This document shows, one piece after another, positions 13,134-24,521 of a stretch of DNA of 64,000 nucleotides. The stretch is taken from positions 6,305 through 70,304 of the IMG/VR virus record IMGVR_UViG_3300027896_005310; one strand, written 5' to 3'. The DNA comes from a virus. The notes under the pieces are model-generated. The model was not told where the DNA came from and did not search any database. It worked only from the letters and a program-made list of their open reading frames with translations. The translations under genes were made by a program, and so were the position numbers. Each line of letters begins with the position of its first letter. The stretch's first letter is position 1.

Positions 13134-15092
13134 TTACAAATCGTAATAATTCTTAGCTAAAAAATTAGATAATGCATCAGAATAATTATATTCTAAAGAA
13201 TTTTTTAAATCTATTAATTTCAGATTAGGTAAAAAATCTGTTGCTATATTGAAAATATCCTCAGATAAGAGTTTCTTTTTATCTAACAACTCTTTAGTGA
13301 GAATTTTAAACAATTTGTAATTTTCATTAAGAATAGAAAATGCTTTCTTTTTTTGTTCTTTTAATATTTGCTCAATAATGGGGTCTGTATCTTCTAAATT
13401 GGTTAGGGTAGTCGTTAAAGGTTCTGTCTCTGGACCTATTCTTCCAATATACTCATCCATATTATGTGCTCTTACCATATTAGAAGCTAAAGAAGTAGCT
13501 ACAGTAATATCAGAACTAGATCCCGTTCCCGCATTACTTTCTCCAAAAACATATTCCTCCGCTACTTTACCTCCCAAACAAACTTGAATAAGCTTTAAAA
13601 TATATTCTTTTGTGTCTCTTATCTCATGAGGCACTACAAATCCTTCAGCAAAATTAACTGCATCACAACAAACTTGTCCAGGTACTGTGTTAAATAAATG
13701 CATATAAATTACAACATGCCCTATCTCATGAGCTGAAACTAAAGATAATACATTTTTATTTATTTTATTTTTTAATATCCCTATGTCTAATTGCACCTTT
13801 TTATAATATTTAAAGTCCCCATATTCACAAAGCAAACTACTACTCTCTTTGTGAAATGAAATATTTAGCTGAGTAACATTATCTTTAAATGCTTTTAACA
13901 AAAATTCTGGTAATGAATTTTCAATCAAATGTGTAATAGTACTAAATACAGGACGTACTCCTTGATTCGGAAATACTCCATTTTGATAAATAGTCTCATG
14001 TATATTGCTTGAAAAATTAACTTTTATATTAGATACTTTATAGAATTTGTTGACTACTTCAGCTAAGCATTTTTTTATTAAATCTTTAAAATTATTTTTA
14101 TTCAAAGAAGTATAAATAATATGATTATTACCCATTCTAGCAATTTGTTCAGGTTTAAATTTTTGAAGCAAAGATTTTTTAATGTCGATTATAGATATTT
14201 TTTTGGTTCTTTCATATAAAATATCCGCATCAGTATCTACTTCTGATACATCAGAGGACATATTATAGGCTTTATCTAAATTACCGCAAATAAAAATAAG
14301 CAAATTATTGTATTTTTTACAGCAACTATCTTTTTCTAAACTATCTAATTTTTCATATATAGCATCTATTTGTTCATCTAAAGAAAGTTGCATTATCTGT
14401 TCAATAGGTAAAGCACTTTCAGTAATCATCTTAAATTTATTAGCTGCCCAAACATAATTTTTAAATTTTTTATTAGCTTTTTTAGTAGGTTTAAGTGAAG
14501 GTGTGTTTTTTATCTTTTGCATAACAACATCACCAATTTCATCTACTTCTTTATCCTCATCTTCATCTTCATCATTTTGATCTTTTTCATATAATAATCC
14601 ATATAAAAAATTCTGTAATTCATATTTTTCTTGAAAAGCATCAGAAAAACTACCATCAGATAAAAGTTCCCAAATATCAGTATAACTATTATTTCGAATC
14701 ATTTCCCCTTTTTCCGTCAAACTACTAAATCTTTGTATTTCATCTAAAAGAAGAATAGCTTGTTTATTAGATGTAATATTTAATCCCGAAAGTTTTGACT
14801 GAATAGTCTCTCCCCTATCTTCTTTCGAAATTAATTGTATTTCAAGATAATTTTCTTTAAGAGATAACTTACTTACGAGTTTTCTTACTAGATCAGTTTT
14901 TCCTACTCCAGTCATTCCCCATAAATTTATAATTAAAGGATGTGTAAGTAATTCCGGAAAAGTATACCATACCTCAATTGAAGTAATTATTCTGTCTATA
15001 ATTAAATCTAATCCAACAAAATCTTTCTTTAAACTTTCTCCTACTTCTATTAACTTTTGTCTTTTACTTTCTATCGCATTGACATCAATCAC
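13134..15092 (-). CDS. soluble AAA+ ATPase fused to M41 (FtsH-type) metallopeptidase
   Basis: Walker A GMTGVGKT, Walker B LLLDE, HEIGH zinc motif, LGGKVAEE..TGSSSDI; no TM segments. Confidence 0.8.
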   Translation of the reverse strand: MIDVNAIESKRQKLIEVGESLKKDFVGLDLIIDRIITSIEVWYTFPELLTHPLIINLWGMTGVGKTDLVRKLVSKLSLKENYLEIQLISKEDRGETIQSKLSGLNITSNKQAILLLDEIQRFSSLTEKGEMIRNNSYTDIWELLSDGSFSDAFQEKYELQNFLYGLLYEKDQNDEDEDEDKEVDEIGDVVMQKIKNTPSLKPTKKANKKFKNYVWAANKFKMITESALPIEQIMQLSLDEQIDAIYEKLDSLEKDSCCKKYNNLLIFICGNLDKAYNMSSDVSEVDTDADILYERTKKISIIDIKKSLLQKFKPEQIARMGNNHIIYTSLNKNNFKDLIKKCLAEVVNKFYKVSNIKVNFSSNIHETIYQNGVFPNQGVRPVFSTITHLIENSLPEFLLKAFKDNVTQLNISFHKESSSLLCEYGDFKYYKKVQLDIGILKNKINKNVLSLVSAHEIGHVVIYMHLFNTVPGQVCCDAVNFAEGFVVPHEIRDTKEYILKLIQVCLGGKVAEEYVFGESNAGTGSSSDITVATSLASNMVRAHNMDEYIGRIGPETEPLTTTLTNLEDTDPIIEQILKEQKKKAFSILNENYKLFKILTKELLDKKKLLSEDIFNIATDFLPNLKLIDLKNSLEYNYSDALSNFLAKNYYDL

Positions 15093-15562
15093 CCCTTCCC
15101 CCTAAATAAACAAAAATGTGTTTTAAAATATTTTTGGTATCTTTCCGTATCATCTATATGCAGTAGAATGCTCTCTCGAGCACAATAATCCCCTTTAGTA
15201 CGATCCCAAATCTCTTTGTCCATCCAAGGGTTGCCATTCTCGTCATAATTGATTTGCGTGCCATTTGTGACGTGATAATCCGCTATAGAAAATAAATGTG
15301 TAAATCTAATATTCCAAAGAGAAAGCTCTTTTAGAGCCTTCTCTTTGGGGGGACCTGTCAAAATATGTACTTCCCACCCCATAAAAATTAAATCTTGTGT
15401 AAGAATAGAGAAAAATTGAGGGTCTGCATCAATCACATGGTGTATGTCTATGCCTATTTTTTTAACAAAATGAAAAGTCTTTCTACAATCTTTTGTCTCA
15501 TAGATATATCCACAACCGTTCTCTATAGTGCATGTCTTACATAATTCTTTTTTAGGAATCAT
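15089..15562 (-). CDS. HAD-like hydrolase
   Basis: KIGIDIHHVID motif I-like, HILTG, LHIDD. Confidence 0.6.
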   Translation of the reverse strand: MIPKKELCKTCTIENGCGYIYETKDCRKTFHFVKKIGIDIHHVIDADPQFFSILTQDLIFMGWEVHILTGPPKEKALKELSLWNIRFTHLFSIADYHVTNGTQINYDENGNPWMDKEIWDRTKGDYCARESILLHIDDTERYQKYFKTHFCLFRGKG

Positions 15563-16059
15563 TTCTTATCAAATTTCTCCATATCTTTTTGATCCATTGC
15601 ATCTTCAACTTCTTTACAGGCTCCACAATTAAAACAGTCATTTAAATCTTCATCGGATAACTCTTCTTCATCGTCTAATAAATCTTCTCCATCTTTTTCT
15701 ATTATATCATCTTCCATTCCATCGTCATCATCTTCTTCAAATTCTTCAGTTTCATCATCATCTTCTTCAAATTCTTCAGTTTCATCATCAAATTCATCTT
15801 TATCTAAAATTCCTTGCTCACAACTCTTCTTTAGACACTCAGCATCACCACTTATAGCTATATAATGTGTATCAGCTTGATCAATTGTTAATTCTTTTCT
15901 ATTAAAATTTTTCACTAACTCATCTATTATGTCTGCTCCTGCTCTTAAAGACTTTGCCCAAGCTTTTAGTGCTTTTTTAGAATCTCCATCATTTATTTCT
16001 AAAAAATGATGCAAATCATCTCCCTGTTTATAGTGTATATTTAAAGTGTATATATCCAT
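15559..16059 (-). CDS. highly acidic protein
   Basis: D/E-rich C-terminal half with CxxCxxC; TTGATT-N17-TAAGAT promoter and AAGGAG RBS upstream. Confidence 0.65.
   Translation of the reverse strand: MDIYTLNIHYKQGDDLHHFLEINDGDSKKALKAWAKSLRAGADIIDELVKNFNRKELTIDQADTHYIAISGDAECLKKSCEQGILDKDEFDDETEEFEEDDDETEEFEEDDDDGMEDDIIEKDGEDLLDDEEELSDEDLNDCFNCGACKEVEDAMDQKDMEKFDKK
15731..15790. repeat. perfect 30-bp tandem duplication in the acidic tail
   Basis: tcttcttcaaattcttcagtttcatcatca twice, encoding DDETEEFEED repeats. Confidence 0.9.
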
Positions 16060-16169
16060 AATATTCTCCTTTATTTAATTAACATTTAGAGATATCTTAA
16101 ATAAAAGAAATAAAAAAATCAAGAAATTTATTCAAAAAATTTTAGACAAAGCATCTAGTTTTAATTAAA

Positions 16170-16292
16170 CTAAATGCTTCTGCTGAGAGCTAAAAACCGA
16201 GAGTAAAATCGACTGAGATTTGAGATCGCAATTAGGCGGACTAAAGCAGAAAAGGTGTGTCCTATGGATACGCTATTAGTTCTAGAAATCAT
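16170..16292 (-). CDS. 40-aa Ser/Arg-rich peptide, below the ORF-track cutoff
   Basis: GGAGG RBS 8 nt before ATG; MISRTNSVSIGHTFSALVRLIAISNLSRFYSRFLALSRSI; TGTATAAT upstream; hairpin over the stop codon. Confidence 0.55.
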   Translation of the reverse strand: MISRTNSVSIGHTFSALVRLIAISNLSRFYSRFLALSRSI

Positions 16293-16425
16293 TGTCTGTT
16301 TCCTCCATTTAATACTAGTTCTATGGTAGGTCTTTCGTAGATTTCTTAAAAAGTCCTAATTAGGATTTCAAAGGGACTAATTCTCCCTCTGTTTTTATTA
16401 TACAAATTAAATTAATAAAATATAA

Positions 16426-16599
16426 TCATTTATAATTTTTAGTTTCTTTTTCTCTTCTTTCAATCTCATTTTTAAATTTTGTTAATAATTTCTGAAGATG
16501 CTCAGATTCTTCTTTGAATTCATTCTCTACAGAAGTTATCACTTTGACTAATAGTGGTAAATCTTTGTCAGCTAAAAACACTTTTGATCTCTTTTTCAT
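16426..16599 (-). CDS. 57-aa hypothetical protein
   Basis: AAGGA RBS; MKKRSKVFLADKDLPLLVKV...ETKNYK. Confidence 0.45.
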   Translation of the reverse strand: MKKRSKVFLADKDLPLLVKVITSVENEFKEESEHLQKLLTKFKNEIERREKETKNYK

Positions 16600-16678
16600 T
16601 TTTAATCCTTTTGAAAGATATAAATTTTTAAAATTTATTTAAGTTATTATATCTTTTATTTGCATTAAAATAAAAACA

Positions 16679-18826
16679 TTATTTTTTAATATAGAGCATA
16701 GTAGTATAATTTTTCAATTGATTTAAATATTTTTGTTCTGTTTTATTTTTACCTAAAACCATAACATATTTTCCCTTTAGTGGGATTTTAATTTTAGCTG
16801 ATTCGTTTAATATTTTTTTTTGCCAAATCTTCCATTTTAATATAATTTCAGAAGGTATTTTACTTAAATTTTTAAAACCATTTTCTTTAAACCAAACATC
16901 TTCAGTTTTAATATTATTTTCTTTTAACCATTTTTTTAAACCAGATGTTCTGCTTAAATATTGTCTAGAAAAAAAATCGCCCTCTTTAAAATAAGGATGT
17001 TGATAAATAGTGTCAGCTCCAAAATTGTTACCTAAATAATCAAAATTACATGCTTGATATATAATTCCTAATTCAGAAGCTTTTGGATCAGCATAGCCTA
17101 TAAAAAGTCTTTTATCTGTGTTTTTTACCATCCAATTTAAAGAAAACATAATAAAAGAACTACCTAAATTTTTAGGTGCCCAGGAAGCTGAACATCCTCT
17201 TTGTATTAAAGCTTCATATTTTTTTGTATCCTCTCCTAATAAAGTAGAATAAGCATTAGGTTCATTAATTAATACTACTCCCACAAGCATCTGTTGATAT
17301 CTAGCTGTAAAAGTCCATTTTACAGAATTTCCAACTTTTTGTAACCATTCATATTTTTCTACAAATGATCTAATTCCATCATTAAAATCTTCTATATTAT
17401 ATACTATATCTGTAATTTTAATTTTTTTATAATCAAAAGATAAATCTCGAATATCATTTTTAAAATCTTTATCTTTTATTATTTTTTGATGTGCTAAATC
17501 TATTAATTTGTAATCAAATAAAGGAAGAATATATTTGGATATTAAACTTTGAAATTTTAAAGCATTTTCATATAAAAAAGTAATTCGATTTTCTCTATTA
17601 AGTTCAAAATCAATATCCCATTTTGTTTTAAAAACTTCTTTAACTTTTTCCAAGTCTTCCTTTAAAAAAGATTCAGTACAAATAGTTAGTGTGTGCTGAT
17701 CATCTTTATAACCATCATCCATATACCAAATAGCTAAACCTCTAGCATCTAATTCTTTAACTACATTAGGATTTAAATATTTTTCATAATTAGTTTTATA
17801 AAATAAAGGATAAATGTCCGTAAAAATTTTATTTTGTATCGTTTTAAATACAACTGCTTTATAAATTTGATTATTTCTTTTATCTAAACGATCTACTATT
17901 TTAATTCCTGAATTTTGAGTATAATTTTTTAATAATTGATATTTATATTCTACATATTCTTTTTGTTTAAATCCATGTGCAATTTTTAATTGTGAATTAG
18001 AATGACTATGTCCTAAATAACTATCTCCCAAAATAGTACCATAAATCAATTGCTTTTGAGTTTCAGAAATATAATTTAAAGGCATATCATTTTTATCTAA
18101 TAAAATTTCTGAATACAAAGAATATCTAATTAAAGTTTTTTTAATAGCATCTGCGCTTACTCTAAATAAGATTGCTATTTCTTCGATTGATTTTTTTTGA
18201 TTTATATATAAATCTTCAATTTTAATTTTTTTTATATGCGCTCCATCTTCTCGTCTTAAAAATATATTAAATTTTCTTAAAGATTTATAAATAGCTGATA
18301 TACCTTTATTTAAAAATTTTGTTATTTCTAAAAGAGATAACTTTTTATTAACATATAAATCATATAATTCTACTTCTGTTATTTCAGAAAAATTTCTTTT
18401 TTGTTTTTCAATATTGTGAGCTGTTTTACTTTGATTTAATCCAGAAGTAGACATTCCTATAATTTTAGAAATTTCAATATCTTTCAAACCTTGATTTTTT
18501 AAAATTTGATATTCTTCAGGATTAAATTTAACTTTTCTAAAAGAAATATTAAATTGAGCTAATCTATTAGCTAAAGCAGATCTTGATATGTTTAATTCTT
18601 CAGCAGCTTCATCTATAGTTTTACCACTATTTGCATATTTTTGTAAAATTTCAGGAGTTATTTTTTCTAACTCTTCAAGAGTAATTCTATCCGTTTTAGC
18701 AAAAGATATGTCCAATTTTCTACAATATCTTTGTAAAGTAGATTTAGAAATAGCTAATTTTTTTGCTGCTTCTATTAAGGAATATTCATTTTTTAATTCA
18801 AGTATAATTTGTTTAGTGATTTCCAT
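16679..18826 (-). CDS. HTH repeats + LAGLIDADG endonuclease + C-terminal Mom-like (GNAT) DNA-modification domain
   Basis: LIYGTILGDS and LAIWYMDDG motifs; C-terminal FVEKYEWL...APKNLGS..FIGYADPKASELGIIYQACNFDYLG resembles the Mom family. Confidence 0.75.
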   Translation of the reverse strand: MEITKQIILELKNEYSLIEAAKKLAISKSTLQRYCRKLDISFAKTDRITLEELEKITPEILQKYANSGKTIDEAAEELNISRSALANRLAQFNISFRKVKFNPEEYQILKNQGLKDIEISKIIGMSTSGLNQSKTAHNIEKQKRNFSEITEVELYDLYVNKKLSLLEITKFLNKGISAIYKSLRKFNIFLRREDGAHIKKIKIEDLYINQKKSIEEIAILFRVSADAIKKTLIRYSLYSEILLDKNDMPLNYISETQKQLIYGTILGDSYLGHSHSNSQLKIAHGFKQKEYVEYKYQLLKNYTQNSGIKIVDRLDKRNNQIYKAVVFKTIQNKIFTDIYPLFYKTNYEKYLNPNVVKELDARGLAIWYMDDGYKDDQHTLTICTESFLKEDLEKVKEVFKTKWDIDFELNRENRITFLYENALKFQSLISKYILPLFDYKLIDLAHQKIIKDKDFKNDIRDLSFDYKKIKITDIVYNIEDFNDGIRSFVEKYEWLQKVGNSVKWTFTARYQQMLVGVVLINEPNAYSTLLGEDTKKYEALIQRGCSASWAPKNLGSSFIMFSLNWMVKNTDKRLFIGYADPKASELGIIYQACNFDYLGNNFGADTIYQHPYFKEGDFFSRQYLSRTSGLKKWLKENNIKTEDVWFKENGFKNLSKIPSEIILKWKIWQKKILNESAKIKIPLKGKYVMVLGKNKTEQKYLNQLKNYTTMLYIKK

Positions 18827-18829
18827 ATA

Positions 18830-21304
18830 TTATATATCCTCATCAGAAAAATTCAATTCTAACCAATTATTAAATATAATATCTGAACAAAAAACATAAT
18901 TTTTTAAATCATCTTTTAAATGAAAATAAGGTTTTGTTTTATTAAACATTCTTTTATATCTAGTAGAAGGTATATTTTCTAATCTATCAAGTTCATAAAA
19001 AGAAAGTATTCTACCATATTTTAAACAAACACTTCTATAATCTATTATTTTTTGCTTTGAACTATTAAATTCTTTATTCAAAGGCAATCCCGCAAAAATT
19101 AAAAAATTATTCCAAGAATCAAATTTTTTTTCTATTGTAGAAGTACTATATGGAAATAAATCAAAATTCTTTTTAAGAAATTTTCGACTAGTGTTAATTT
19201 TTTGATTATATAAAGCATTTATTTTTTTAACACAATCATCTATATTAAAAAATAAATAATCTTTATTAAGCGATTTTTTTATTATTTTTTCTTCAATTTT
19301 TCTAGAAATTTTATCAATACTGTTTTTTTGAAGAATAAATAAATTCTCATATTTTGTAATATGTTTGTTTTCTTTTTTATTATAAATACTGCCTAAAGGA
19401 ATATAATATTTAGCAACAAGTCCAAATTTATTATCACATAATATAAAAAAATCTTCTATAAGATTATAATTCTCATAATTATTTAAAACTATAGCATAAT
19501 ATCCTTTATCTACTAATAAATCATAAATATTCTCAATAGTTTTTTTCAAAAAATTTTCACGCCAAATCTCATATAAAGGATATTGTTTAATACTTTGAGT
19601 TTGTTCTTCAGAATATTTTTCTAAATCAAAATAAGGAGGACAAGATAAAACTAGCCCTATTTTGTTTTTTAATTCTAAAGGACAATATTTTTCAGAACAA
19701 TTTTTAATAATTTGAATATTTTTATTAATATTAATTTTTTCAATCATTTTTAATGAAGCTTCAAAAGTTTCTGAATTAGGATCTAAAGATATAATGTTAT
19801 TTATTTTTGAAAATAAAGTACCTAATAATTTACCACCATATCCCGCATCGGGAAGATAAACATAATCATTTATGTCAAAATTATCACAAATCCATCTAGC
19901 AACCATTGGTTTAAAGTTAGCAACTGTTCTAAACATTAAATCAATACCTGTACGCATAGGAGAATGATTAACGCCTTCTGCATAATTAAATCTATTTAAT
20001 ATTAATTTTTTTAAATTTAAATCATCTAACCAAGAATTAAAAGGAGAAGCATAATTTTTATAATTAGCTTTATAAATATGAGGCATAAAAAATTTACAAA
20101 TATCTAAACCTTGAGTTTTAAATTCCAAAATTCCATTTATTTCTTTTATTGTAGCTTTTTTAAAATTATTTAATTTATAATCCCATTGTTCATCATATAT
20201 TTTTATATAAGGAAAACCAACAGTTCGATAATATTTAAAAACTTGATCTATCCAAAGTTCTTTTTCATCTTCAGACAAAAGATGAAAAAGTCTAGATTTA
20301 TATTTTTTTATATTAAAATCATAACCTAAAATAGCTCTATTTCTAAATTCTTTTAATGTTTCTTCAGAGATTTGATTCAAAAATTCTATAGGAATTTTGT
20401 ATAACATATCTGGGGTAATATACTTTTTTATTATATTAAAAAAATTATCTTTATTTCTTATTCTTAAAAAATTCATACCAGTCATAGAGGGGTAATTCTT
20501 TATTACAATATCTAAATTTTCTTTTTCATTTAAAAAATTTACAAATTCTTTTAAATTTTCATTAAAAGCAGTGTTTATTATAGGATAATTATCCTTAAGT
20601 TCTCCATCCCCAAAATACCAAAAAGCTATATAACCATTATTCCAATTATTTTTTAAATAACTTAAAGGTATTATTTTTTGATTATCAATATAAAAAATAT
20701 CGCGCATAATTTTAAATTCTTTTGTAGCTTTTGTTTTAAACCCTATTTCTTTTTCTCCTTTTTTAGGAAGATCATAAAATATTTTAAGAGATAAGGGCAA
20801 TAAATCAATATATATTTTTTTAAGATATAAATCTTGAGAAATAGCGTGACTTTCTTTATAAAAAGCTGTTTCTTTACCAGAAAAATATACACCACCATCA
20901 CCTAATAAACTGCCTGTTACAATTATTTTTTGATATTCAGTTAAAGAAGCGATTGATCCTTGTTCTATAAGAATTTTAGATTTTAAACCTCTTTTTTTTC
21001 TATCATTTTTTATTTTTAAAGTAGAACAACCAAATTTTAATGCAAATTCTTCAAGAGTATTATTTAAATAATATTGATTGAATTCTTCATCAGTTAATTG
21101 ATTAATATTAGGATAACTTTTATTTTTAGATTGAAGTAACCTATCAAATTGAGATTTTGTCTTAATATTATATCTTTTTCTTAAATTTGAAATAGTAACA
21201 TCTGAACAATTATATAAATCACCTATTTCTCTATCACTCAAATTTTTTGTTACATATAAAGAATAAAGCAATTCTGAAGATAATTTTTTTTCAATTCCTA
21301 GCAT
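18830..21304 (-). CDS. HTH + LAGLIDADG endonuclease + amino-methyltransferase-like domain
   Basis: VTGSLLGDG and AFWYFGDG motifs; NFKPMVA, YLPDAGYGGKLLG (motif I-like), SCPPYFDLEKYS (motif IV-like); C-terminal TIEKKFDSWNN homing-endonuclease-associated repeat. Confidence 0.75.
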   Translation of the reverse strand: MLGIEKKLSSELLYSLYVTKNLSDREIGDLYNCSDVTISNLRKRYNIKTKSQFDRLLQSKNKSYPNINQLTDEEFNQYYLNNTLEEFALKFGCSTLKIKNDRKKRGLKSKILIEQGSIASLTEYQKIIVTGSLLGDGGVYFSGKETAFYKESHAISQDLYLKKIYIDLLPLSLKIFYDLPKKGEKEIGFKTKATKEFKIMRDIFYIDNQKIIPLSYLKNNWNNGYIAFWYFGDGELKDNYPIINTAFNENLKEFVNFLNEKENLDIVIKNYPSMTGMNFLRIRNKDNFFNIIKKYITPDMLYKIPIEFLNQISEETLKEFRNRAILGYDFNIKKYKSRLFHLLSEDEKELWIDQVFKYYRTVGFPYIKIYDEQWDYKLNNFKKATIKEINGILEFKTQGLDICKFFMPHIYKANYKNYASPFNSWLDDLNLKKLILNRFNYAEGVNHSPMRTGIDLMFRTVANFKPMVARWICDNFDINDYVYLPDAGYGGKLLGTLFSKINNIISLDPNSETFEASLKMIEKININKNIQIIKNCSEKYCPLELKNKIGLVLSCPPYFDLEKYSEEQTQSIKQYPLYEIWRENFLKKTIENIYDLLVDKGYYAIVLNNYENYNLIEDFFILCDNKFGLVAKYYIPLGSIYNKKENKHITKYENLFILQKNSIDKISRKIEEKIIKKSLNKDYLFFNIDDCVKKINALYNQKINTSRKFLKKNFDLFPYSTSTIEKKFDSWNNFLIFAGLPLNKEFNSSKQKIIDYRSVCLKYGRILSFYELDRLENIPSTRYKRMFNKTKPYFHLKDDLKNYVFCSDIIFNNWLELNFSDEDI

Positions 21305-21431
21305 TTATAATTCTCCATATTATTATTTTAATAGATTATAAAATAATTTAAAAATAAAGTAAAGGAGAATTCTAAAAATGTTTATTAAATTGTCTGCTAA
21401 TGAACTTAAAAAATTAGGATATTTGATTTTG

Positions 21432-21481
21432 AAAAAATTAGAAATGAAAAGCTTCTTAAAAAAGAAACTTTTCATTTCTAA
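21432..21481 (-). terminator. intrinsic terminator after major capsid gene
   Basis: ttagaaatgaaaag..cttttcatttctaa stem followed by T6 on the minus strand. Confidence 0.75.
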
Positions 21482-21494
21482 ATAAAACTAAATA

Positions 21495-22275
21495 TTATCT
21501 AGCAATAATCATACGACTTAATGCTCCTGGGTTATGACATCCCAAGCCAAGATTTTCAAAAATACTGAATCCAATAGTTCTAGCTTTGGGATCATCTGCA
21601 CTTAAAACGGTAAGTTCCGTTCTCACAGGTATCCTGCCTAGAAATTCGGCCTCAGCACAAATGTAAGCATATCCTACTGGAACTTTTCTAGAAACGATAA
21701 TTTGAGCACCCCAAAGATAAGCCATAAGACCTGTTTTTAATAAAGATGCTTGAGTTTCAATATCTAATATGTCGCGTCCCCATTTTCTAATATCCGTATA
21801 ATCTTTAGGATTCATGAAAATTCTAGCTACTCTTAAATCATGTCTTTCAACATCAGCAAAAGAATCAGCAAAGAAAGAAGCAGTAATAGGAGCTGCTACG
21901 TTAATATCAGGATTTGTTAATCCGTCATCAGCAGCTGCGCCAGCTACAGCATCAAAAATAGCAAAAATTCTACCATCTTCTTCGGCTTGAATTTCAGCTT
22001 TCGCTAGATCTTGCGCTCTTTCAATTAAGTCAAAGCGTCTTTCTTTTACTTGTGTCAATGGAATAGTAGGGTTTGAACTTAATTCAAACAATGGGAAAAT
22101 TACTCTTCTTGGTTTTTGAATTGCAAGAATGTTTTCACCCTCTTCTCCGATTACATAAGCAACAGCTCTTGGATCTTTATCATAAATTGGTAAAGCTCCA
22201 TCAGGCAATTGTTCAACTAAAAAGGCCCTACGTCCAATTGACGTATAGTCTCGTCTGAAGCGCAATGGTTGAATC
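21495..22275 (-). CDS. major capsid protein, exon 2
   Basis: RRDYTSIGRRAFLVEQLPDGALPIYDKD capsid-like sequence in head-module position; joins exon 1 in frame as AAS-M-IQPLRF, giving a 293-aa protein. Confidence 0.85.
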
Positions 22276-23402
22276 CATTTTGTTACTTAAACCTCTGTTA
22301 GAGGCGAATGAGCTTTTCAACTCATTTCTCATAGTTACCTATGAGTTCAGACTGTATCACCATTTCTGTTATTAAAACAGAAAGCCCGGCATGTCTTGAG
22401 AAATTACTTTCTCAAAATGGGAGTTATCATCATGCTCTATATAAATAGAGTTTAGATTTTCCCCAGTCGTTGAACCTTCAATGCTATTTCTAGCAAAGCT
22501 TGGCTGCTGATTGTCCTTACAAAATCTTTTTGGAATTTTATGATATAAATCTTCAGTAATTTCAGATTGAATATATTCCCAAGCTATATTATGACTTTCC
22601 TTTAAAACATGAATGTTTCCTTCACCTTCAGAATTCCAAGTAATAGAAACTTTAAGATTTAAAACATCTGCTAAAACATTAATCGCTTCTTTTGTTTTAA
22701 AAAAAGGATCAAAAGTGCAAATATCAAAACCATAACCAGTAGTACTTCCATCATCAAGGAACCAAAAAGCAAATCCTGAAGGAGTTAATTTTTGTAACCA
22801 TTGTGTAGAAATTATTTTTATACCTTCTGGATAAAGTTCTTTACGAAATTCTGTAAATTGAGGTAAAGCAAAACTTCTAGCGTCAACATAAGGAAATAAT
22901 TCTCCCCCTTCTTCAAAAGCTCTTTCACCATAAAATACTTTTGCAGTAAAGGGTTTCATAATTTCAGCTTGTTTTAACAAATACTTTTCTTGTTTGGTAG
23001 TATGTTGGCATAACCAATATCCTGTTCCTGATTTTTGAACAGCAATACAAGAATCACCTAATAAAGAACCATATAAAAATTGTTTTTGTCGATCTGAAAG
23101 AGGTACAAATCTTAAAGGGTTTCTTCGTAATCTATAATTAGGATCTGTTTTAATCCCATATATTTTACGTAATTTTCTAACCCAACTTCGAGAAATACCA
23201 TGCTCATTAGAAATTTCGGTATCACTAAATCCAATATACTCATATTGTTCACGAAGAAAATCTTCAGACAATATAGAAGATAAAGAATTTAATTTTTTTT
23301 GACTTATTATGATACCATTTATATTCATTAATTTTTTCCAAAAATCTTATAAATTGGAGTTTCCAGCAATTTACCGAGTTTAACGTCCACTGATTCTAGT
23401 TA
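22276..23402 (-). mobile_element. group I self-splicing intron, 1127 nt
   Basis: exon ends in U paired with G in P1 (GCGUCCAU/GUGGACGU); P10 GAAUC/GAUUC; P AAAUUGCUGGAAA, Q AAUCAGCAG, R UUCAACGACU, S GAUACAGUCU; terminal G at 22276. Confidence 0.92.
22372..23328 (-). CDS. intron-encoded LAGLIDADG homing endonuclease
   Basis: FLYGSLLGDS and FAFWFLDDG motifs with N-terminal HTH; 3' end reads through ribozyme elements Q and R. Confidence 0.88.
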   Translation of the reverse strand: MNINGIIISQKKLNSLSSILSEDFLREQYEYIGFSDTEISNEHGISRSWVRKLRKIYGIKTDPNYRLRRNPLRFVPLSDRQKQFLYGSLLGDSCIAVQKSGTGYWLCQHTTKQEKYLLKQAEIMKPFTAKVFYGERAFEEGGELFPYVDARSFALPQFTEFRKELYPEGIKIISTQWLQKLTPSGFAFWFLDDGSTTGYGFDICTFDPFFKTKEAINVLADVLNLKVSITWNSEGEGNIHVLKESHNIAWEYIQSEITEDLYHKIPKRFCKDNQQPSFARNSIEGSTTGENLNSIYIEHDDNSHFEKVISQDMPGFLF

Positions 23403-23503
23403 ATGGACGCGGCCAGTTTAGCTCTGCCAGCAGCTGTTTTAATATACTCTGAGATAACTTGTTCTTTTACCTCATTACTGGCGGGTTGATTGTTTGTTAA
23501 CAT
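23403..23503 (-). CDS. major capsid protein, exon 1
   Basis: AGGAGG RBS; MLTNNQPASNEVKEQVISEYIKTAAGRAKLAAS plus AT; unspliced frame stops two codons later. Confidence 0.85.
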
Positions 23504-23533
23504 AAAAAATTCCTCCTAAAAATATTAATATTT

Positions 23534-23565
23534 TCTGATACCATTTCCTTAAAGGCAGTATCAGA
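23534..23565 (-). promoter_or_regulatory. 5' UTR stem-loop motif, copy 1, upstream of capsid gene
   Basis: UCUGAUAC-UG-CCU(UUA)AGG-AAAUG-GUAUCAGA. Confidence 0.55.
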
Positions 23566-24127
23566 TTCTCATTATAAATCTCATATAAGGGTTAGCTGGA
23601 GTTGGAGATTGAGTAATAATACCAATTATTGTAGAAGCACCAGGAGCTTGTCCCCCGTTTAAACCAGCAGCAATAGTCAATAGACCATTTTGTGAACAAT
23701 AAAGTGGCAATCCATAAGCATAATTAGGTAAAATTGAATTAATTCCATTAAAATCACTTGTTTCATAAAGATTTACTTCATAAACTCCCATACCCATTAC
23801 GAAGACACCTTTTTCAGAAGCAGCAGCAGAAGATGATTCATAAGCGTTTCCAGCTAAATCATTAACATATAGTCCTACGATTGAATCAGTTGGTCCTGAA
23901 CCAGCTCCTACAAGTCCTTCAGCTTTAATCGCAGCAACTGAACCAGCTAAACAACCTAATTTTGTAATTCCAGCTGTAGTAGTATTAGCTACTAATTGAG
24001 CAGTCCCTGTAGTATTTGATTTTGTGAAAGCAGCACTTACTAGACCCTCAATTGAATTTCGAACACCTAAATAAAGAATCCTTAAAATTCCACCGCCTTC
24101 TACAAGAAAACCAGTTGTACTTGACAT
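23561..24127 (-). CDS. head decoration/cement protein
   Basis: G/A/S/T-rich 188 aa directly upstream of the capsid gene; AGGAGG RBS; LYCSQNGLLT..IIGII pattern. Confidence 0.7.
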   Translation of the reverse strand: MSSTTGFLVEGGGILRILYLGVRNSIEGLVSAAFTKSNTTGTAQLVANTTTAGITKLGCLAGSVAAIKAEGLVGAGSGPTDSIVGLYVNDLAGNAYESSSAAASEKGVFVMGMGVYEVNLYETSDFNGINSILPNYAYGLPLYCSQNGLLTIAAGLNGGQAPGASTIIGIITQSPTPANPYMRFIMRI

Positions 24128-24157
24128 AAATTATTCCTCCTAAAAAATTAATAATAA

Positions 24158-24192
24158 AATCACCATTTTCCTATTTAAATAAGACAGTGATT
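24158..24192 (-). promoter_or_regulatory. 5' UTR stem-loop motif, copy 2, upstream of decoration gene
   Basis: AAUCAC-UG-UCUUAU(UUAA)AUAGGA-AAAUG-GUGAUU. Confidence 0.55.
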
Positions 24193-24332
24193 ATTTTTTT
24201 AAACAAAAGATGCGCAATATTAATTGATTATTTTTAAAAAAACTTTTACATTCAAAAAATAAATTAGTAATATTTATATAGATTTGATTTTCAAAATTAT
24301 AGAATTAATTAATTTTTAAAGGAGAATACAAA

Positions 24333-24521
24333 ATGAGTACTTTTATTTTTACAGGAAAACCTACTTATGGTCTGACCACTAAAGATATTAAAGTTCCAAA
24401 TGGAACAGGTTTTACTATCTATGCTGGTGTTATTCCATTTACTACACAAATTAAAACAGATAATGCTGTTGAAATAGCTTATTTTAAATCTAATGTTCAA
24501 ATATTTAAGGCAATATTATAA
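24333..24521 (+). CDS. small putative virion protein
   Basis: AAGGAG RBS; 62 aa, predicted beta-rich. Confidence 0.6.
   Translation: MSTFIFTGKPTYGLTTKDIKVPNGTGFTIYAGVIPFTTQIKTDNAVEIAYFKSNVQIFKAIL

What the first reader, a model, noticed from the sequence alone, without database searches (positions are those of the whole stretch)
16679..21304. Tandem LAGLIDADG endonucleases each fused to a different DNA-modification domain
Seen: two adjacent genes, 3 nt apart and just downstream of the capsid gene, share an HTH plus double-motif LAGLIDADG architecture with acidic residues present (GTILGDS/WYMDDG; GSLLGDG/WYFGDG). One continues in frame into an amino-MTase-like domain (PDAGYGG, SCPPY), the other into a Mom-like GNAT domain (YADP..ELGIIYQACNF). 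Known: homing endonucleases normally spare their own locus because the target is disrupted, and Mu Mom modifies adenine to block restriction. Inference: this may be a cut-and-protect system that marks self DNA and cleaves competitor phage, or a site-specific DNA writer guided by a long LAGLIDADG recognition site. Two different writer chemistries on one scaffold argue against a chance fusion.
Basis: partly seen in the sequence, partly recalled or inferred. Interest (0 to 1): 0.85.

Follow-up and report, generated by a model that had tools for sequence, protein, structure and literature searches.

The report
Mobile LAGLIDADG nucleases fused to DNA modifiers
Right after its capsid gene, an uncultured large phage carries two genes that each join a rare-cutting homing nuclease to a DNA-modifying enzyme, and related phages gain, lose and reshuffle such genes at this same spot.

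Summary
ORF 18830-21304 (824 aa) is HTH + two-motif LAGLIDADG + amino-methyltransferase module + a repeat typical of homing endonucleases. ORF 16679-18826 (715 aa) is HTH repeats + two-motif LAGLIDADG + a Mom-type GNAT module, whose model matches the phage Mu Mom crystal structure best. Neither fusion is an artefact or a one-off. LAGLIDADG-methyltransferase occurs in at least 40 protein clusters and LAGLIDADG-Mom in 12 further proteins. Acidic catalytic residues are kept in 101 of 103 LAGLIDADG domains.

The spot behind this highly conserved capsid gene is hypervariable. Of 54 related loci, 11 hold LAGLIDADG-methyltransferase, 2 LAGLIDADG-Mom, 14 LAGLIDADG alone, and 23 none of these. Two near-identical phages differ by one clean 1351-bp stop-less LAGLIDADG insertion that reads in frame into the resident gene. 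On a LAGLIDADG tree the fused partner changes repeatedly.

Best reading: mobile homing-endonuclease cassettes that picked up writer domains by in-frame accretion. Cut-and-protect is possible but not required, because many nucleases in this spot carry no writer.

Iyer et al. 2021 predicted nuclease-Mom fusions with REase-fold nucleases. My searches found no paper on the LAGLIDADG versions. This scan has already found the same designs on several other genomes.

The parts
18830..21304 (-). 824-aa gene: HTH + LAGLIDADG + amino-methyltransferase module + C-terminal homing-endonuclease-associated repeat
20960..21304 (-). N-terminal HTH region (about residues 1-115) of the 824-aa protein
   Evidence: phrog_12058 at 1e-11 and phrog_8446 at 1.1e-4 on residues 8-114. 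It aligns with the HTH region of the 715-aa protein.
20495..20923 (-). Two-motif LAGLIDADG_2 domain (residues 128-270). GDG (135-137) and DG (233-234) are invariant in 5 of 5 homologues.
19310..20302 (-). Amino-methyltransferase module (about residues 335-665): helical N-subdomain, motif I PDAGYGG, motif IV SCPPY
   Evidence: AF2 model at pLDDT 93.9. Best structural matches are TrmN at Z 18.0 and Trm11 at E 1.2e-9. The family profile hits DNA methylases 2zie at 4e-6 and 8s9n at 1.7e-4. There are 2979 cluster representatives at E<=1e-3.
18833..19207 (-). C-terminal region with a match to the homing-endonuclease-associated repeat (HNH_repeat, below Pfam's cut-off)
   Evidence: PF18780 at E 3.8e-4, 21.2 bits against a cut-off of 26. 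Similar C-termini occur in L014, L015, L016, L027, L029 and L034.
16679..18826 (-). 715-aa gene: HTH repeats + LAGLIDADG + Mom-type GNAT module
18092..18826 (-). HTH repeats (about residues 1-245)
   Evidence: HTH_28 at 1.4e-11, HTH_23 at 4.9e-10 and others
17570..18052 (-). Two-motif LAGLIDADG_2 domain (residues 259-419). G263, G267, D268, W367, D370, D371 and G372 are invariant in 13 of 13.
16682..17491 (-). Mom-type module (residues 446-715), starting with the conserved HQK linker
   Evidence: AF2 model at pLDDT 94.9. The best PDB match is 8bv8_A, phage Mu Mom, at E 1.1e-10, against 5.8e-5 or worse for other GNATs.
21438..21481 (-). Terminator-like hairpin (20 pairs plus a T run) directly after the capsid gene's stop
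   Evidence: consensus scan only
21335..21363 (-). Promoter-like site (TTTACT-17-TATAAT) ahead of a GGAG ribosome-binding site and the ATG at 21304
   Evidence: consensus scan only; such sites are not enriched over shuffles
22372..23328 (-). Third HTH+LAGLIDADG ORF (318 aa) inside the sequence that interrupts the capsid gene. It is only 25-26% identical to the other two.

Best explanation
The two genes are mobile, free-standing homing-endonuclease cassettes of the monomeric two-motif (I-SceI-like, Pfam LAGLIDADG_2) type. Each has gained a DNA-modifying domain in the same reading frame: an amino-methyltransferase module in one and a Mom-type GNAT in the other. They sit in a hypervariable accessory spot directly behind a very conserved major capsid gene. 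In related phages this spot is empty or holds LAGLIDADG genes with or without writers. The nuclease part most likely cuts cassette-free relatives at or near this spot, so that repair copies the cassette in (inferred). The writer part most likely modifies the phage's DNA in the way Mom and phage orphan methylases do, as an anti-restriction benefit that also selects for keeping the cassette (inferred). The fusions arise because these modules lack a stop codon and insert in frame ahead of the next gene, so they build up into long multi-domain proteins (shown in relatives). The writer may also shield the phage's own DNA from the fused nuclease. That role is possible but not required.
For: Architecture and conservation:
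- Pfam and PHROG hits support all domains.
- Four other LAGLIDADG-MTase proteins share 35-50% identity over the searched region, residues 300-824.
- Of 66 long (>=550 aa) cluster representatives of the MTase module, 40 carry LAGLIDADG_2 and 36 carry N6_N4_Mtase.
- 13 of the 120 listed long proteins with this Mom module carry LAGLIDADG_2, the window's own included.

Both halves look active:
- Acidic residues are kept at both LAGLIDADG motifs in 15 of 15 Mom-fused, 55 of 57 MTase-fused and 31 of 31 unfused domains.
- The PP of the MTase motif IV is invariant in 108 of 108.
- Mom S124, D149 and Y159 align with conserved S556, D580 and Y590 (paper PMC13219725, section 13).
- The Mom module's model matches Mu Mom best.

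Mobility:
- The capsid gene is 72-91% identical in 80 fetched loci.
- Of the 54 loci with at least 3 kb downstream, 11 hold a LAGLIDADG-MTase fusion, 2 a LAGLIDADG-Mom fusion, 1 LAGLIDADG plus a separate Mom, 14 LAGLIDADG only, 3 an MTase alone or a fragment, and 23 none of these.
- The distance from the capsid gene to the next shared gene is 136 nt in L025, 584 in L066, 1295 in L052, 4520 in L001 and 5436 in the window.
- L065 and L062 are 99.9% and 99.7% identical in the two flanks and differ by one clean 1351-bp stop-less LAGLIDADG module that reads into the resident 85-aa ORF.
- The same 85-aa ORF forms the C-terminal part of LAGLIDADG-MTase proteins in L037 and L001.
- On a LAGLIDADG-domain tree the partner label changes 18 times. 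Well-supported branches force at least 4 changes for Mom and at least 8 for MTase.

The pair also looks like its own transcription unit, with a terminator-like hairpin and then a promoter-like site and RBS.
Against: - No activity of any domain has been measured.
- DNA as the methyltransferase's substrate is only inferred. The closest folds are tRNA m2G methyltransferases. The window's protein does not reach Pfam PF01555 at E<=0.01. Its motif IV reads CPPY where 98 of 108 relatives have SPPY.
- Mom's essential R151 aligns with K582, a position that varies in this family.
- I found no near-identical pair of phages with and without the window's own two genes, so mobility is shown for relatives and not for these copies.
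- The three LAGLIDADG modules in the window are only 25-27% identical, so none is a recent copy of another.
- Some rows labelled 'free' on the tree are ORFs cut by contig ends (L028, L058, the third ORF of L010). That inflates the count of changes for that label.
- The Mom module is joined to nuclease-type N-termini in most long relatives, and in L008 it sits next to an unfused LAGLIDADG gene. This recurring pairing fits a functional nuclease-writer link better than simple hitch-hiking.
Confidence: 0.55

Rival explanations
1. Obligate cut-and-protect module, like a single-chain restriction-modification system. The writer marks the phage's own DNA so that the fused nuclease spares it. The nuclease destroys unmodified DNA of co-infecting phages or of the host.
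For: - Iyer et al. 2021 proposed exactly this for jumbo-phage Mom domains fused to REase-fold nucleases (PMC7824862, section 3.4.7, passage read).
- Of the 120 listed long proteins with this Mom module, 77 carry DUF7487 and 13 carry LAGLIDADG_2.
- In L008 a Mom ORF and an HTH-LAGLIDADG ORF lie next to each other without being fused. That LAGLIDADG is sister (SH-aLRT 94) to one from a fused protein.
- Both the catalytic and the writer residues are conserved.
Against: - 14 of 54 related loci carry LAGLIDADG genes in the same spot with no writer.
- L065's LAGLIDADG is fused to a zinc-ribbon ORF instead of a writer.
- Closely related LAGLIDADG domains carry different writers, so no specific nuclease-writer match is apparent.
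- From general knowledge of the family, two-motif LAGLIDADG enzymes read about 18-22 bp. That is too rare a site for general attack on host DNA.
Confidence: 0.27
2. Site-directed DNA writer. The LAGLIDADG domain serves mainly as a long-site DNA-binding guide that places the methyltransferase or Mom domain at one locus, with the nuclease inactive or reduced to nicking.
For: - Extra HTH repeats and homing-endonuclease-associated repeats add DNA-binding surface.
- In L001 the first of two tandem LAGLIDADG copies has lost both acidic residues (N and R). This shows that binding-only copies can persist.
Against: - 101 of 103 LAGLIDADG domains keep an acidic residue at both motifs, including both window proteins.
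- From general knowledge, binding-only LAGLIDADG derivatives such as maturases and WhiA usually lose these residues.
- The Mom and MTase modules also exist as stand-alone proteins of about 290-380 aa, so they can find DNA without a guide.
Confidence: 0.08
3. Meaningless by-product. A stop-less homing-endonuclease insertion happened to land ahead of resident writer genes, and the N-terminal extension is merely tolerated. An assembly chimera is the extreme form of this reading.
For: The L065/L062 pair shows that such an insertion fuses the module to whatever ORF lies downstream. Decay products exist: 83-aa MTase fragments in L051 and L069, and a truncated MTase between two LAGLIDADG domains in L029 where L027 has the two joined.
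Against: - The same two architectures recur over wide divergence with both halves conserved.
- Whole LAGLIDADG-MTase genes are present or absent as units (L048 against L045).
- Contigs of an independent assembler bridge both junctions, and many independent assemblies hold the fusions, so an assembly chimera is excluded.
Confidence: 0.1

Closest known systems
Jumbo-phage Mom domains fused to REase-fold endonucleases (Iyer, Anantharaman, Krishnan, Burroughs, Aravind 2021, Viruses 13:63; PMC7824862)
   Same: A Mom-type GNAT and a nuclease sit in one polypeptide of a large phage. The Mom module here is the same family as in the DUF7487+Mom proteins: 77 of the 120 listed, at 50-58% identity over the module.
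   Different: The nuclease here is a two-motif LAGLIDADG, not an REase-fold domain. The word LAGLIDADG does not occur in that paper's main text. The supplements and Figure 5b could not be seen. The paper's function is a prediction and has not been tested.
Phage Mu Mom (PDB 8bv8; Pfam PF25680), the Gly-tRNA(Gly)-dependent adenine-N6 modifier (Silva et al. 2026, PMC13219725)
   Same: It is the best structural match (E 1.1e-10, TM 0.61 on the target, 245 columns). Equivalents of S124, D149 and Y159 are conserved.
   Different: Sequence identity is only about 16%. R151 is not conserved. The module has a conserved N-terminal linker and about 40 extra residues. It is fused behind a nuclease, whereas Mu Mom stands alone. 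The window holds no tRNA gene. The acyl donor and the product are unknown.
I-SceI-type monomeric LAGLIDADG homing endonucleases (Pfam PF03161) and free-standing phage homing endonuclease genes
   Same: One chain holds two motifs, each ending in an acidic residue. The gene lies next to a highly conserved gene and is present or absent at a fixed spot in relatives.
   Different: It is not in an intron or intein. It carries N-terminal HTH repeats and a C-terminal enzyme domain. It has no stop codon of its own in the L065-type module.
ShiLan insertion: an actively homing HNH element inside a phage DNA methylase gene (Arsenault, Gosselin, Gogarten 2025; PMC11855218, abstract read)
   Same: A homing nuclease is embedded, without splicing, in the reading frame of a phage DNA methylase.
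   Different: There the HNH nuclease is read out of frame and sits inside the methylase. Here the LAGLIDADG is in frame and N-terminal.
Type IIG/IIL restriction-modification enzymes (for example BpuSI, PDB 3s1s)
   Same: The order along the chain is N-terminal nuclease, then a methyltransferase with motif I before motif IV. BpuSI appears among the fold matches (rank 18, E 1.2e-7).
   Different: Those enzymes use a PD-(D/E)xK nuclease and read short sites through a C-terminal target-recognition domain. PADLOC models of defence-system methylases did not match.

Membership tests
LAGLIDADG_2 (PF03161), monomeric two-motif homing endonucleases | Profile match above the curated cut-off | tested here: met
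   109.6 and 44.9 bits against a cut-off of 25. PADLOC HEase models match at 3.1e-24 and 1.8e-10.
LAGLIDADG_2 (PF03161), monomeric two-motif homing endonucleases | Two LAGLIDADG motifs in one chain, each ending in an acidic residue followed by Gly/Ser | tested here: met
   GTILGDS/WYMDDG and GSLLGDG/WYFGDG. The residues are invariant in alignments A1 (5 sequences) and A2 (13 sequences).
LAGLIDADG_2 (PF03161), monomeric two-motif homing endonucleases | Site-specific DNA cleavage | not testable with these tools
   Needs the purified protein and empty-site DNA.
Free-standing homing endonuclease gene (mobile) | Presence/absence at a fixed site between conserved flanks in close relatives | tested here: inconclusive
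   Met for relatives: L065 against L062 has a clean 1351-bp insertion, and 54 loci show variable content. No near-identical partner lacking the window's own two genes was found. The closest relative, L007, ends 424 nt after the capsid gene.
Mom family (PF25680) | Profile match above the curated cut-off | tested here: met
   38.7 bits against a cut-off of 27.1, E 1.1e-9. The own-genome search gives 42.2 bits. phrog_1384 matches at 7.5e-15.
Mom family (PF25680) | GNAT fold closest to the Mu Mom structure | tested here: met
   8bv8_A at E 1.1e-10 against the next GNAT at 5.8e-5. The model has pLDDT 94.9.
Mom family (PF25680) | Essential residues S124 and D149, and the activity-important Y159, of Mu Mom | tested here: met
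   The HMMER alignment to 8bv8 (chain numbering runs 9 below the paper's) pairs them with S556, D580 and Y590. D and Y are invariant and S is present in at least 90% of 120 sequences (the residue list comes from PMC13219725, section 13).
Mom family (PF25680) | Essential residue R151 | tested here: not met
   It aligns with K582, and the position varies (K/R/G/T/S/H) across 13 relatives.
Mom family (PF25680) | Essential residue R111 | tested here: inconclusive
   It lies outside the HMMER alignment. By spacing alone (13 residues before the Ser) it would be the invariant R543.
Mom family (PF25680) | Gly-tRNA(Gly)-dependent modification of adenine N6 in dsDNA | not testable with these tools
   Biochemistry is needed. 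The window holds no tRNA gene.
DNA amino-methyltransferase (N6-adenine/N4-cytosine; PF01555 and relatives) | Class I Rossmann methyltransferase fold | tested here: met
   Model at pLDDT 93.9. TrmN Z 18.0, aTrm11 Z 17.5, Trm14 Z 17.1.
DNA amino-methyltransferase (N6-adenine/N4-cytosine; PF01555 and relatives) | SAM-binding motif I (GxG) and catalytic motif IV (D/N/S)PP(Y/F) | tested here: inconclusive
   In motif I the first G is invariant in 108 of 108. In motif IV, PP is invariant and Y is present in 102 of 108. The first residue is C in the window and in 8 others, against S in 98 of 108.
DNA amino-methyltransferase (N6-adenine/N4-cytosine; PF01555 and relatives) | Profile match of the window's own protein to PF01555 | tested here: not met
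   No hit at E<=0.01. However, 36 of 66 long relatives match (best 1e-19), and the family profile hits DNA methylases 2zie at 4e-6 and 8s9n at 1.7e-4.
DNA amino-methyltransferase (N6-adenine/N4-cytosine; PF01555 and relatives) | DNA (not RNA) as substrate | not testable with these tools
   The closest folds are tRNA m2G methyltransferases. DNA is inferred from the sequence hits and the context.
Intein with LAGLIDADG insert | Hint (splicing) domain blocks flanking the nuclease, with host-protein parts on both sides | tested here: not met
   No intein or Hint family was found at E<=0.01. The sequence N-terminal of the LAGLIDADG is HTH repeats, and the nuclease is of the LAGLIDADG_2 type, not the intein type LAGLIDADG_3.
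Type IIG restriction-modification enzyme | PD-(D/E)xK nuclease domain N-terminal of the methyltransferase | tested here: not met
   The N-terminal nuclease is LAGLIDADG_2. No PADLOC restriction-modification model matched.

The most novel reading that the evidence does not exclude
A self-immunising homing endonuclease. The fused writer is tethered by the LAGLIDADG domain's long recognition site and modifies a base within or next to that site on the genome carrying the cassette. A free-standing nuclease gene can then keep its target intact inside a constrained capsid region and still spare itself, while cutting unmodified cassette-free relatives in mixed infections. The same design would be a natural long-site programmable DNA writer.
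Probability: 0.2. Interest if true: 0.8.

Novelty: new variant of a known kind. Interest (0 to 1): 0.55.

Why it matters
If both halves are active, these proteins naturally couple a meganuclease-type long-site DNA reader and cutter to two different DNA-writing chemistries. That bears on three questions: how selfish nuclease genes persist in phage genomes, how anti-restriction modification genes spread between phages, and how protein engineers might target writers to long sites. The variable spot behind the capsid gene, with its clean in-frame accretion series, also gives a concrete and testable picture of how long multi-domain phage proteins are assembled from mobile modules.

Tried and rejected
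I therefore could not fetch the contigs of the closest protein relatives (P0002, P0122-P0124), and no near-identical genome lacking the window's own cassettes could be sought that way.
- The search for related loci with the single 824-aa protein found no relative. With the 715-aa protein it found 4 loci.
- DNA-level search of the phage collection gave only two short matches.
- The profile of A3 against PDB sequences gave only a weak Mom hit (E 0.33). The fold search was needed to establish the match.
- PADLOC showed only homing-endonuclease models and no defence methylase. NCBIfam gave only sub-threshold HTH matches.
- Rfam (E<=0.1) found no group I intron in 15900-24400. The only hit was a sub-threshold LOOT match, which I take as chance. 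The sequence interrupting the capsid gene is therefore supported only by exon homology.
- A profile of the next downstream gene (window 15559-16059) found only 4 relatives among the downstream ORFs. The right border of the variable spot is therefore defined in few loci.
- No RNA holder was listed among sequencing runs. The three 'joints' have sides of only 20-21 letters in AT-rich sequence, and I disregard them.
- I read the N-termini of the DUF7487+Mom proteins (P0023, P0024) as repeats plus a Vsr-like nuclease, and that of P0102 as HNH-like. I did this by eye. Pfam names only DUF7487 for the first two and nothing for P0102, so these calls remain untested here.
- The literature searches found no paper describing LAGLIDADG-Mom or LAGLIDADG-methyltransferase fusions.
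- Supplements are closed. Supplementary S1.11/S5 and Figure 5b of PMC7824862, and the supplementary network of more than 8000 Mom homologues in PMC13219725, may list such architectures.
- Complex prediction and the protein atlas were not used.

Full report
**What is there.** On the minus strand, 190 nt after the stop of the major capsid gene (21495-22265; phrog_2522 at E 8.5e-43), lie two long ORFs only 3 nt apart.

The first ORF, 18830-21304, encodes 824 aa. It has:
- an N-terminal HTH region;
- a LAGLIDADG_2 domain at residues 128-270 (E 1.6e-11);
- a module of about 330 residues carrying PDAGYGG and SCPPY;
- a C-terminal stretch that weakly matches the homing-endonuclease-associated repeat.

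The second ORF, 16679-18826, encodes 715 aa. It has:
- several HTH repeats;
- a LAGLIDADG_2 domain at residues 259-419 (E 2e-31);
- a C-terminal module that matches Pfam Mom (E 1.1e-9, above the cut-off) and the PHROG 'Mom-like DNA modification protein' (7.5e-15).

The window is part of a 70.3-kb viral contig that is estimated to be 42% complete. A 20-pair hairpin with a T run follows the capsid gene. A promoter-like site and a GGAG ribosome-binding site then precede the first ATG. These are consensus matches only. Contigs from an independent assembler of one run, probably the source sample, bridge both domain junctions without any difference.

**The writer domains.**
- *Mom module.* I folded residues 446-715 of the 715-aa protein with an alignment of 120 sequences and got pLDDT 94.9. 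Its best match in the PDB is the crystal structure of phage Mu Mom, 8bv8, at E 1.1e-10. The next, ordinary GNATs score 5.8e-5 or worse.
- *Mom residues.* The HMMER alignment to 8bv8, whose chain numbering runs 9 below the paper's, pairs Mom S124, D149 and Y159 with S556, D580 and Y590. All three are conserved in the family. By spacing alone, R111 would be the invariant R543. R151 aligns with a variable Lys. The list of important residues and the Gly-tRNA(Gly) mechanism come from Silva et al. 2026 (PMC13219725; I read the abstract, section 13 and some passages).
- *Methyltransferase module.* The model has pLDDT 93.9 and is a class I amino-methyltransferase. It is closest in fold to the tRNA m2G enzymes TrmN, Trm11 and Trm14 (Z 17-18; Foldseek E 1.2e-9).
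- *Methyltransferase sequence.* The family profile hits DNA methylases in the PDB (2zie at 4e-6; a DNA cytosine-N4 methyltransferase, 8s9n, at 1.7e-4). Of 66 long relatives, 36 match Pfam N6_N4_Mtase. Motif IV reads SPPY in 98 of 108 relatives and CPPY in 9, the window among them.
- *Conclusion.* The fold and the motifs are established. DNA as the substrate is inferred.

**The fusions are families, not accidents.**
- *Mom module.* A search restricted to proteins of 393-1252 aa found 211 proteins. Of the 120 listed, 13 carry LAGLIDADG_2 (the window's own included), 77 carry DUF7487, and 30 have only the Mom family on record. The contigs reach 589 kb.
- *Methyltransferase module.* It has 2979 cluster representatives at E<=1e-3. 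Many are stand-alone proteins of about 330-380 aa. Of the 66 that are at least 550 aa long among the best 150, 40 carry LAGLIDADG_2, 6 carry LAGLIDADG_3 and 4 carry DUF7487.
- *Synteny.* A 485-kb uncultured phage (L001) has the same arrangement: capsid gene, then a 1229-aa protein with two LAGLIDADG domains and the methyltransferase module, then a homologue of window gene 15559-16059.
- *Catalytic residues.* The acidic residue at the end of both LAGLIDADG motifs is kept in 101 of 103 domains: 15 of 15 Mom-fused, 55 of 57 methyltransferase-fused and 31 of 31 unfused. The two exceptions are the first tandem copy in L001 and P0222.

**The spot behind the capsid gene is a variable, mobile-element slot.** The capsid protein is very conserved: 577 or more viral contigs hold a relative, and the 80 loci I fetched are 72-91% identical. 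I dropped 26 loci that have less than 3 kb of sequence downstream.

| Content downstream of the capsid gene | Loci (of 54) |
|---|---|
| LAGLIDADG-methyltransferase fusion | 11 |
| LAGLIDADG-Mom fusion | 2 |
| LAGLIDADG ORF plus a separate Mom ORF (L008) | 1 |
| LAGLIDADG alone | 14 |
| Methyltransferase alone or as a fragment | 3 |
| None of these | 23 |

The 'none' group includes other accessory genes: an RRXRR+DUF7487 protein, a UDG and a SAM-lyase-like protein. One of the 'LAGLIDADG alone' proteins also carries a ParB_N domain. The distance from the capsid gene to the next shared gene ranges from 136 nt in L025 to 5436 nt in the window.

**A direct view of how fusions form.** L065 and L062 are 99.9% and 99.7% identical on the two sides of a single 1351-bp difference that lies 166 nt after the capsid gene. 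The extra DNA in L065 encodes two HTHs and an intact LAGLIDADG domain, and it has no stop codon. The reading frame begins at an ATG shared by both phages. It runs straight through the GTG start of the resident 85-aa zinc-ribbon ORF and yields a 542-aa fusion. The same zinc-ribbon ORF forms the C-terminal part of LAGLIDADG-methyltransferase proteins in L037 (896 aa) and L001 (1229 aa). This gives an accretion series: zinc ribbon alone, then LAGLIDADG + ribbon, then LAGLIDADG + methyltransferase + ribbon, then two LAGLIDADG + methyltransferase + ribbon.

Other comparisons point the same way:
- The stand-alone Mom ORF of L008 begins about 16 residues before the conserved HQK/HQR junction at which all the fusions join.
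- L048 equals L045 plus a whole LAGLIDADG-methyltransferase gene, and L045 equals L044 plus a whole unfused LAGLIDADG gene. Both comparisons are at lower identity.
- Decay is also visible. L051 and L069 hold 83-aa methyltransferase fragments. L029 holds a truncated methyltransferase between two LAGLIDADG domains, where L027 has the two domains joined.

**Partner switching.** I built a quick IQ-TREE of 103 LAGLIDADG domains: 57 methyltransferase-fused, 31 unfused and 15 Mom-fused.
- The tree needs 18 changes of partner label, against a shuffled mean of 39.4. Well-supported branches alone force at least 8 changes for methyltransferase and at least 4 for Mom.
- The LAGLIDADG of the window's Mom fusion lies in a 97%-supported clade of 8 Mom-fused, 2 methyltransferase-fused and 1 unfused (L008) domains.
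- Some 'unfused' rows are ORFs cut by contig ends, so that label is overcounted.
- The three LAGLIDADG modules in the window are only 25-27% identical to each other.

**Interpretation.** The most economical reading is that these are mobile, free-standing homing-endonuclease cassettes that have gained writer domains by in-frame accretion.
- *Shown:* the architecture, the conservation of both halves, the variable occupancy of the spot, a clean in-frame insertion in relatives, and the partner switching.
- *Inferred:* that the nuclease drives copying into empty sites, that the writers modify DNA, and that this benefits the phage against restriction.
It remains possible, and it is favoured by the recurrent pairing of the Mom module with nuclease-type N-termini and by the unfused Mom/LAGLIDADG pair in L008. 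It is not required, however. Many LAGLIDADG genes in this spot carry no writer, and one is fused to a zinc ribbon instead.
- *Targeting-only role.* A role for the LAGLIDADG purely as a DNA-binding guide is unlikely given the conserved catalytic residues.

**Novelty.** Nuclease-Mom fusions with REase-fold nucleases have been predicted in print. A homing HNH element embedded in a phage methylase gene is also described (PMC11855218, abstract). My four literature searches found no description of LAGLIDADG-Mom or LAGLIDADG-methyltransferase fusions, but I could not see any supplements. This scan has already reported the same designs on several other genomes. What is particular to this window is the tandem of both types next to a third LAGLIDADG gene that sits inside the interrupted capsid gene.

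Noticed in passing
window 22276-23402 (capsid gene exons about 23403-23503 and 21495-22275): The major capsid gene is interrupted by about 1.1 kb that holds a third HTH+LAGLIDADG ORF (22372-23328). The first ~35 residues (MLTNNQPASNEVKEQVISEYIKTAAGRAKLAAS) lie upstream and match the uninterrupted L001 capsid protein. Rfam found no group I intron at E<=0.1. In most of the 80 related loci the spacing before the capsid match (about 120 nt) leaves no room for such an interruption; L007 and L008 have larger gaps that I did not examine.
   Followed up: partly
L065 10941-12290 against L062 10940/10941: There is a clean 1351-bp stop-less HTH+LAGLIDADG insertion between flanks that are 99.7-99.9% identical. 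The frame starts at a shared upstream ATG and reads into the GTG start of an 85-aa zinc-ribbon ORF. The left junction (CTAGAC) and the right end of the insertion (GTCTAG) form a 6-bp inverted repeat, which may be chance.
   Followed up: yes
L062 10944-11201; L065, L037, L001, L075, L076: The 85-aa zinc-ribbon ORF recurs as the C-terminal part of progressively longer LAGLIDADG and LAGLIDADG-methyltransferase proteins (542, 896 and 1229 aa). This suggests stepwise N-terminal accretion of mobile modules.
   Followed up: partly
L018 10882-12540; L015 2683-4758; L060 11016-11681; L072 1593-2459: The same spot behind the capsid gene holds other cargo in relatives: a LAGLIDADG+ParB_N fusion, an RRXRR+DUF7487 protein, a uracil-DNA glycosylase family protein and a SAM-lyase-like protein. 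It looks like a hotspot for nuclease and anti-restriction genes.
   Followed up: partly
L008 11000-12761 (minus strand of the locus): A stand-alone Mom ORF (294 aa) is followed by an overlapping HTH+LAGLIDADG ORF (324 aa) in another frame. The order is the reverse of the window's fusion. That LAGLIDADG is sister to one from a fused protein.
   Followed up: partly
L051 and L069 (83-aa ORFs 156 nt after the capsid gene); L029 against L027: These look like decay products: short methyltransferase fragments, and a truncated methyltransferase between two LAGLIDADG domains that are directly joined in a close relative.
   Followed up: no
window 19639-19653 (motif IV of the 824-aa protein): Motif IV reads CPPY instead of the family's usual SPPY (9 against 98 of 108 sequences). 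The Cys is invariant in the window's subfamily. The effect on catalysis is unknown.
   Followed up: partly
window 13134-15092: A phage-encoded FtsH-like protein of 652 aa has AAA and Peptidase_M41 (1.3e-17) domains and a ClpB D2-small match.
   Followed up: no
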